NCBI GenBank assembly: GCA_951406725.2
Contig: OX597815.1
Coordinates: 4,216,001-4,280,000 of the forward strand
DNA length: 64,000 nucleotides
Direction of reading: 5' to 3'
From: Octopus vulgaris
Taxonomy: Eukaryota
Shown: in pieces, positions 58,194 to 58,801 of the stretch
Numbering within the stretch: position 1 is the first letter of the stretch
How the letters are laid out: each line of letters begins with the position of its first letter
Notes under the pieces: model-generated
The model's input: the letters and a program-made list of their open reading frames with translations, nothing else
The model's database searches: none
Told to the model about the DNA's origin: nothing
Position numbers and translations under genes: made by a program

Positions 58194-58339
58194 AAATCAA
58201 TTAAGATTCAAGTCAATTCTAATGAATTCACTTGAATATGGTACTTAACTTAGATGCACCAGAAAACTATATGGTGTTAACCAATACAGTAGTGTGGGGT
58301 GATTATAAACGAGAAAAGAAGCAAAAAGAATGGATTAGT

Positions 58340-58430
58340 TTTTAGTACAATTGTTTCATACAAAGACAGGCTTTATTAAAAGTTGCAAATATTGCAGCAG
58401 ATAAAAGTGTCCCGTACTCATCAGCTAAAA
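58340..58430 (-). ncRNA. Type I hammerhead ribozyme motif (antisense copy)
   Basis: Reverse complement of 58647-58737. Confidence 0.7.
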
Positions 58431-58646
58431 TGCATATGAGTTCTCTAAACATCTTAGTGGGTGAGGCTACACTCATGAAGTCTTGGAGATAATTTCATTA
58501 AAAGCAAATTCAGGTTGTAAACAGACTTCCAAAGTTCTTTAATGATGATGCACAGTCTTATCACAGGTTTTAAAAAAGCTTATTAGTTTCACAGAGAAGT
58601 TTAATCCATCCATAGTGTAGGTGTAAATTTAGAGAACTCATATGTA

Positions 58647-58737
58647 TTTTAGCTGATGAGTACGGGACACTTTTATCTGCTGCAATATTTGCAACTTTTA
58701 ATAAAGCCTGTCTTTGTATGAAACAATTGTACTAAAA
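58647..58737 (+). ncRNA. Type I hammerhead ribozyme motif with palindromic helix III
   Basis: ttttag-CTGATGA-gtac...gtat-GAAA-caattg-TA-ctaaaa. The core is intact, helix I has 6 bp, and cleavage is predicted after 58731. Confidence 0.75.
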
Positions 58738-58766
58738 ACTAATCCATTCTTTTTGCTTCTTTTCTC

Positions 58767-58801
<35 letters not shown>

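What the first reader, a model, noticed from the sequence alone, without database searches (positions are those of the whole stretch)
58309..58768. Young foldback with two intact, outward-facing hammerhead ribozymes
Seen: near-identical 140-bp arms, each with 6-bp helix I (uuuuag/cuaaaa), a perfect CUGAUGA and GAAA, a long helix II insertion, palindromic helix III (acaauugu) and a GUA cleavage triplet. It is unrelated in sequence to the 21 kb family. Inference: a second recently active PLE/retrozyme-like family. The + strand ribozyme could cleave a host pre-mRNA unless the foldback pairing sequesters it.
Basis: partly seen in the sequence, partly recalled or inferred. Interest (0 to 1): 0.75.

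Follow-up and report, generated by a model that had tools for sequence, protein, structure and literature searches.

The report
Truncated Hydra-type Penelope retrotransposon foldback
The two mirror-image hammerhead ribozyme motifs are real, but they are the cut-down ends of one ordinary Penelope-type jumping-gene insertion in a TA repeat; almost every such pair in this genome has one short and one long end, which likely reflects how the element copies itself in, and the motifs are predicted to be blocked by pairing with their own mirror copy.

Summary
Observation confirmed: 141-nt inverted arms (1 mismatch), each with a complete type I hammerhead motif. The unit is larger than reported: 58190-58768, between two (TA)n tracts. 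It is a 5'-truncated insertion of a Penelope-like element: a minus-strand end with a ~120-nt tail, joined through TTT to an inverted, tail-less end. The parent carries every Hydra-clade motif; six intact 949-957 aa ORFs were found in a sister subfamily; an 18-nt ribozyme tag has 1,640 exact genome hits. Inverted truncated copies, one-sided tails, TA targeting and ribozymes are all published. Less usual: a 60-nt helix II region, the long tail, Asn-rich inserts, and a near-strict rule that outward pairs combine one tailed and one untailed end (51 of 52; 47 of 48 in a second set), either arm being the longer. This favours two RNA-templated priming events, one per target strand (inferred). Truncations do not pile up at the ribozyme cut site. 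Host-RNA cleavage is unlikely: the antisense arm is always transcribed first. Cleavage itself is untested. The scan found this kind of structure before, in this genome and others. New member of a known kind; low interest.

The parts
58157..58190 (.). (TA)n target tract, left
   Evidence: sequence
58190..58309 (-). ~120-nt tail; ends at the 'long' end. In partial-tandem copies this stretch runs on into the ORF start codon about 55-60 nt further
58206..58237 (-). hairpin-forming palindrome in the tail, one of three predicted; no covariation support
58310..58630 (-). 5'-truncated 3' end (pLTR / 3' UTR) of the element: left arm plus the 'spacer'
   Evidence: 95-98% identical to other copies over query 1-336
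58340..58430 (-). type I hammerhead motif, predicted cut between 58346 and 58345
58628..58630 (.). TTT shared by both arms at the inversion junction (3-nt microhomology)
   Evidence: read by eye; continuation CCAG in other copies
58628..58768 (+). inverted, more truncated copy of the same end, stopping at the 'short' end (no tail)
58647..58737 (+). type I hammerhead motif: helix I 58647-58652 / 58732-58737, CUGAUGA 58653-58659, helix II region 58660-58719, GAA 58720-58722, palindrome 58723-58730, predicted cut 58731/58732
58768..58798 (.). (TA)n target tract, right
   Evidence: sequence

Best explanation
The locus is one recent, 5'-truncated insertion of a Hydra-clade Penelope-like retrotransposon in a TA repeat, made of two head-to-head copies of the element's ribozyme-bearing end, one with and one without the ~120-nt tail, likely produced when both nicked target strands primed reverse transcription on the element's RNA at two different start sites, and its ribozymes are predicted to be silenced by pairing between the arms. 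Shown: anatomy, parent element and clade, copy number, the one-tailed/one-untailed rule, conserved pairing of the motif. Inferred: the GIY-YIG endonuclease nicks both strands of (TA)n; one 3' end starts cDNA at the short site and the other at the long site, each just 5' of a short TA-like stretch of the RNA; both cDNAs stop early (here 141 and ~440 nt) and are joined at a few shared bases. The RNA template was not cut at the ribozyme site when copied (uncut, or cut and re-ligated). The ribozyme likely serves the full-length element (processing tandem transcripts, as a dimer through the helix III palindrome or with protein help) and is a passenger in this stub.
For: Parent: the same end lies downstream of an RT + GIY-YIG ORF in 5 of 5 long copies fetched; uninterrupted 949-957 aa ORFs in 6 of the 42 long loci scanned. 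Hydra motifs RWK, DKT, CxCX5C, CxxC and CxH round E/N all in P0001 (against Craig 2021 section 11). Geometry: 27 of 28 close neighbours among the first 100 tag hits are outward-facing. End rule: 51 of 52 two-armed clusters are long+short, none long+long or short+short; 47 of 48 in loci fetched later, including 5 of 5 in a sister family. Of 88 mixed pairs the untailed arm reaches further 5' in 34, the tailed arm in 30, 18 are similar, 6 unresolved; in 6 the tailed arm is shorter than the tail itself and so shares next to nothing with its partner: neither arm can be a simple fold-back copy of the other in these. Arms come from one subfamily (46 of 47 arm pairs differ at <=6 of 138 positions, random pairs 11) and the window's arms share a variant seen in no other fetched locus. 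Pairing: 94.9% of cells paired, 4 pairs with double changes, 0/500 shuffles as high, slid controls 29-56%. Precedent: the anole element cuts and extends both strands and starts at two sites that delimit the tail (Frangieh 2024). Confidence about 0.95 for identity, about 0.55 for the two-primer mechanism.
Against: No biochemical or raw-read evidence. Frangieh saw no difference in start site between the two strands, so the strict one-of-each rule is not explained by that work. One short+short pair exists (L229, both ends 7 nt off the usual site, with alike flanks). Many insertions have one arm only within the stretch fetched (37 of 93 clusters; short stretches inflate this). Automated junction calls were noisy: only 24 of 50 fell within -3..+5 nt. 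The covariation rests on few lineages (17 rows, 3 from one sister family) and the shuffle control ignores relatedness. The loci were chosen by similarity or by pattern, not at random. The window's own subfamily showed no intact ORF among 5 long copies.
Confidence: 0.75

Rival explanations
1. Same element, different route: an inverted intermediate is made first (self-priming or a switch to an antisense template, as proposed by Arkhipova 2013) and the endonuclease then resolves it with staggered cuts, one at the short and one at the long site (the origin of the tail suggested by Craig 2021).
For: Also predicts one tailed and one untailed end. 18 of 88 pairs have arms of similar reach, and some junctions are palindromic. 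Published proposals.
Against: Pure DNA fold-back cannot give the 34 of 88 pairs whose tailed arm is the shorter, nor the 6 with almost no shared sequence; an antisense RNA template must be added, and then a precise stop. In vitro the tail ends match RT start sites, not cut sites.
Confidence: 0.3
2. The + or - strand ribozyme at this locus cuts a host transcript and so has a regulatory or harmful effect.
For: Core nucleotides are complete in both arms; retrozymes are depleted in Xenopus introns (bioRxiv 2026.07.22.740005); earlier notes of this scan place similar stubs in introns (unchecked).
Against: The antisense arm precedes the ribozyme on both strands; foldback -270 / -290 kcal/mol; the hammerhead-compatible ensemble lies 4.1 kcal/mol above the free monomer; metazoan PLE motifs cleave weakly, as dimers or only with protein. 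The locus is one of over a thousand copies and shows no sign of locus-specific conservation.
Confidence: 0.07
3. A non-autonomous family in its own right (MITE-like foldback or retrozyme) that spreads as this 579-bp unit.
For: Compact inverted repeat with non-coding interior; both arms nearly identical.
Against: No second copy shares this junction among the 40 candidates scored: others match query 1-336 and go on into the element's 3' UTR; spans and junctions differ at every locus; no head-to-tail tandem of a short unit here.
Confidence: 0.03

Closest known systems
Hydra clade of C-terminal EN+ Penelope-like elements (Craig et al. 2021, PMC8557442), incl. Hydra-1_Obim and Penelope-13_HM
   Same: RWK, DKT, CxCX5C, CxxC/CxH motifs; C-terminal GIY-YIG; (TA)n target; hammerhead near the 3' end; Penelope-13_HM is listed with a 5'-truncated inverted copy and the ribozyme on both strands; G.U closing of helix II also appears in Penelope-13_HM and -17_HM.
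   Different: Unit ~4.2-4.6 kb with a ~950-aa ORF swollen by Asn-rich inserts, against 'generally <3 kb'; loop II 46 nt with an inner hairpin against 3-10 nt in the 26 Hydra rows of File S2; ribozyme sequence unlike that of Hydra-1_Obim (compared by eye), so a different family.
Inverted-pLTR insertions with a one-sided tail (Arkhipova 2013 PMC3846280; Craig 2021 Fig. 2 legend)
   Same: Head-to-head inverted truncated copy; tail at one end only; Asn-rich inserts in the ORF as in Adineta Pen2a-Pen4.
   Different: Tail ~120 nt rather than 30-40 nt; here the one-of-each pairing is counted and near-strict, where the passages seen call it 'optional' or 'often'.
PAc (Poseidon of Anolis; Frangieh et al. 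2024, PMC11167929)
   Same: Two start sites delimit the tail; AT-rich targets; both strands cut and extended; uncut RNA is the substrate.
   Different: Other clade; there ribozyme cut site and start sites lie inside the ORF, here all lie upstream of the ATG; no strand-to-site assignment reported in the parts read.
PLE hammerheads with palindromic helix III (Cervera and de la Pena 2014, PMC4209133) and non-LTR retrozymes
   Same: Type I fold, palindromic helix III, dual motifs 100-700 bp apart on opposite strands already noted in Schistosoma.
   Different: Not a minimal motif (long helix II, no extra base after the core); not a tandem non-coding retrozyme.

Membership tests
Penelope-like element, EN+ | single ORF with RT and C-terminal GIY-YIG endonuclease | tested here: met
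   P0001, 957 aa, YRDD; GIY-YIG Pfam E 8e-4, below the curated cut-off, on L032, none on P0001; alignment profile hits a retron RT at E 0.013
Penelope-like element, EN+ | pLTRs from partial tandems, inverted 5'-truncated copy, one-sided tail | tested here: met
   L050 partial tandem 99% direct repeat; 17 read-through arms; pairs
Penelope-like element, EN+ | retained intron (some members) | tested here: inconclusive
   no spliced joint in contigs of 4 runs laid on L059; contigs cannot show absence
Hydra clade | RWK and DKT motifs | tested here: met
   IRWKT, ADKTG in P0001 against section 11
Hydra clade | CxCX5C linker; CxxC and CxH round conserved E and N; no canonical CCHH | tested here: met
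   CKCRIKSKC; CQLC..E..N..CVH; C818, C820, C826 invariant in 39 relatives. CCHH absence judged by eye only
Hydra clade | insertion into (TA)n | tested here: met
   end contexts
Hydra clade | RT groups with Hydra in a phylogeny | not tested
   reference sequences were seen only in a supplement and compared by eye: RT3-RT4 region matches the Hydra rows, not Neptune or Nematis
Hydra clade | generally short (<3 kb) | tested here: not met
   unit about 4.2-4.6 kb; a tendency in the paper, not a diagnostic; excess is Asn-rich inserts and a ~1.4-kb 3' UTR
Neptune / Nematis clades | CX2-5CxxC linker, DKG motif | tested here: not met
Type I hammerhead ribozyme | CUGANGA, GAAA, NUH and three helices in order | tested here: met
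Type I hammerhead ribozyme | pairing conserved through substitutions | tested here: met
   sister family has G-C at 10.1/11.1, another subfamily A-U; helix III palindrome changes on both sides
Type I hammerhead ribozyme | match to an Rfam hammerhead model | tested here: not met
   no hit at E<=10; the long helix II is the likely reason
Type I hammerhead ribozyme | self-cleavage at the NUH site | not testable with these tools
   only assembled contigs were offered
Non-LTR retrozyme | non-coding head-to-tail tandem repeats with a ribozyme per unit | tested here: not met
   inverted arms; parent is protein-coding

The most novel reading that the evidence does not exclude
Penelope-like elements insert by obligate asymmetric twin priming: the two strands of one target each start reverse transcription at a different, fixed site on the element RNA (~120 nt apart here), so an inverted insertion always gets exactly one tailed and one untailed end. 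This octopus Hydra family, with intact ORFs, well-separated start sites and a long-helix-II hammerhead that Rfam misses, would be a clean system to prove it.
Probability: 0.5. Interest if true: 0.45.

Novelty: new member of a known kind. Interest (0 to 1): 0.24.

Why it matters
The locus itself matters little: it is one stub among more than a thousand. The family matters modestly. How Penelope-like elements make inverted insertions and tails is called unresolved in Craig 2021 and Frangieh 2024; the near-strict end rule and the arm-length symmetry narrow the models and give a direct in vitro prediction. The long helix II shows that hammerhead searches with short-spacer descriptors or Rfam models undercount these motifs. 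Such foldbacks are also a likely source of long double-stranded RNA in a lineage known for heavy RNA editing (own knowledge; not tested here).

Tried and rejected
1) Pile-up of 5' truncations at the ribozyme cut site: rejected. Junction arms genome-wide at positions 0, -1, -2 were 5, 8 and 10 (of 8, 12 and 19 hits; one duplicate removed), against 13 at +8 (of 30 hits seen out of 32), 7 at -6 (of 11), 2 at -12 (of 5) and 3 at -14 (of 14), classes corrected by eye. A gradient, no peak. 2) Neptune or Nematis clade, my first guess: rejected. 3) Tail hairpins as conserved RNA structures: 88% paired but no covariation above shuffles (183/500): unsupported either way. 4) Expression: no RNA holder listed on record; contigs of 4 runs guessed to be RNA cover family sequence, with other copies' letters, and show no ends or spliced joints. 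5) Rfam: no hammerhead among the 150 of 201 rows shown for the window or the 19 for the locus. 6) Automated microhomology calls: too noisy to rely on. 7) Host gene: 90 stop-to-stop frames of >=110 aa, read by eye as repeats and transposon fragments; intron status left open. 8) Five apparent long+long pairs were internal read-throughs miscalled as ends. 9) Protein dimer prediction: no job ran, no verdict. 10) PDB search with P0002: nothing relevant. 11) Arkhipova 2006 is not held and was not read.

Full report
Observation. The arms are real: 58309-58449 and 58628-58768, 141 nt, one mismatch. Shuffled windows give 0.025 hits at loose settings and none of 200 at these stem lengths. There is no sequence similarity to the 21-kb family. 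Rfam does not recognise the motif.

What it is. The genome search returned 1,402 candidates, 40 scored; most match only query 1-336, i.e. left arm plus spacer, at 94-98%. So the spacer is element sequence and the right arm is a second, inverted piece. The left piece continues to 58190, and (TA)n lies on both sides. Upstream, long copies carry a ~1.4-kb 3' UTR and an ORF with RT, Asn-rich inserts, a cysteine linker and a GIY-YIG domain. Six of 42 long loci hold an uninterrupted 949-957 aa ORF; they belong to a sister subfamily whose ORF is about 87-88% identical to the window's. P0001 shows RWK, DKT, CxCX5C and CxxC/CxH, the diagnostic motifs of the Hydra clade; its RT3-RT4 region matches the Hydra rows of the published alignment by eye. 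Of 42 database relatives nearly all are unnamed at 29-44% identity; one, 70% identical over the N-terminus, is an Octopus sinensis gene model, which with earlier notes points to an octopus host. An 18-nt ribozyme tag has 1,640 exact hits, control 0. A second young family (1,026 candidates, top 40 at 98-100%) has the same two ends and the same motif with substitutions.

The ribozyme motif. Over 17 chosen rows of 143 extracted arms plus the sister family, 94.9% of cells pair, four pairs change on both sides, and no shuffle reaches the score; slid structures give 29-56%. The closing pair of helix II is G.U, A-U or G-C by subfamily, and the helix III palindrome changes from ACAAUUGU to ACGAUCGU. 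Lineages are few, so this is support, not proof. The monomer does not prefer the hammerhead fold; the compatible ensemble is 3.5-7.5 kcal/mol higher in five variants (4.1 here), and helix III forms an 8-bp self-duplex at -6.4 kcal/mol, as expected for dimer-type motifs. The helix II region is 60 nt; the 26 Hydra rows in Craig's File S2 have loops of 3-10 nt, though two Selaginella PLE-X motifs have long ones.

The foldback. Among the first 100 tag hits listed, 27 of 28 neighbours within 8 kb face outward. Ends fall at two sites about 120 nt apart: of 169 arms, 71 short, 79 long, 17 read through into the ORF, 2 other. Of 93 clusters, 52 were two-armed (51 long+short, 1 with a fragment of a distant relative), 37 one-armed within the stretch fetched, 4 complex. 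In loci fetched afterwards 47 of 48 pairs were mixed (L172 and L178 look like one insertion in duplicate); the exception has non-standard ends. The tailed arm is the longer in 30 of 88 pairs, the shorter in 34, similar in 18, unresolved in 6, and in six pairs it is shorter than the tail. Arms of a pair come from one subfamily, and the window's two arms share a private variant. Both ends lie just 5' of a TA-like stretch in the read-through sequence.

How it likely works. Shown in the anole element: both target strands are cut and extended, cDNA starts at two internal sites that delimit the tail, and uncut RNA is the substrate. I infer that here each nicked strand of a (TA)n tract primed one cDNA, one at each site, that both stopped early, and that they were joined at TTT (58628-58630). 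Simple fold-back copying is excluded for the 34 pairs above. An inverted intermediate resolved by staggered endonuclease cuts remains possible. 5' truncations are not enriched at the cut site, so cleaved linear RNA is not a favoured template. In an outward-facing pair any read-through transcript makes the antisense arm first; the predicted foldback is -270 kcal/mol, so cleavage of host RNA is unlikely. Intron status is unknown, and the runs offered were contigs only.

What is known. [quoted passage not shown] An octopus Hydra family is listed, with a different ribozyme. I did not find the strict pairing rule or a twin-priming model for Penelope elements in searches; subscription papers, including Arkhipova 2006 and Evgen'ev and Arkhipova 2005, were not available and may hold it. 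Seen: PMC8557442 passages, sections 11 and 20, supplement parts 2 and 54 and search hits; PMC11167929 parts 1-2 of 4 (supplements not read; they may bear on strand-to-site assignment); PMC4209133 parts 1-2 of 4; PMC3846280 passages and Discussion; bioRxiv 2026.07.22.740005 part 1 of 5 and passages (supplements closed); PMC6962438 two passages. The scan's earlier notes describe the same kind of structure in this and other genomes; none matched this sequence.

Verdict. Real, explained, a new family of a known clade. Interest 0.24; the end rule is the one part that a specialist could use.

Noticed in passing
window 21140-21525 and 26966-27583: Two foldbacks of a second hammerhead-bearing family (minimal motif, extra base after the core); one arm at 21 kb has UUGAUGA in place of CUGAUGA. 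Unrelated in sequence to this family.
   Followed up: partly
L118-L137 (e.g. G000:C20:31777599-31777874): Very young sister family (top 40 copies 98-100% identical, 1,026 candidates) with G-C closing helix II, a perfect 7-bp stem and the same two ends; a better substrate for a cleavage assay. Its ORF was not fetched.
   Followed up: partly
L144/L145 (G000:C14:14048367-14048472): An outward pair in which both arms start exactly at the ribozyme cut site, with a ~65-nt near-palindrome of other origin between them. One case; origin of the insert unknown.
   Followed up: no
L229 (G000:C7:303386-304003): The one short+short pair: both ends 7 nt before the usual site and alike flanking repeats, as if duplicated at DNA level.
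   Followed up: partly
protein P0037: Octopus sinensis gene model that joins ~200 aa of this element's ORF start (70% identical) to ankyrin repeats and a RING finger; exonisation or annotation artefact.
   Followed up: no
window 29470-29566 (-): 97-nt fragment of large-subunit rRNA (88 bits), probably a retroposed piece.
   Followed up: no
L032:581-1045 (+): A GIY-YIG fragment of another Hydra-like family overlapping the region next to this element's 3' end.
   Followed up: no
L008-L010 (G000:C2:206.28-206.30 Mb): Three near-identical copies spaced about 8.5 kb apart: a tandem segmental repeat that contains the element end.
   Followed up: no
element 3' UTR, e.g. L014 and L030: A long pyrimidine tract ending in TTCAG, and CTTAAT...AG just before the start codon, look like splice acceptors; no spliced joint was seen in contigs.
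   Followed up: partly
window 57879-58046, 59448-59833, 55000-55084: Copies of an abundant short interspersed repeat on both sides of the insertion.
   Followed up: no
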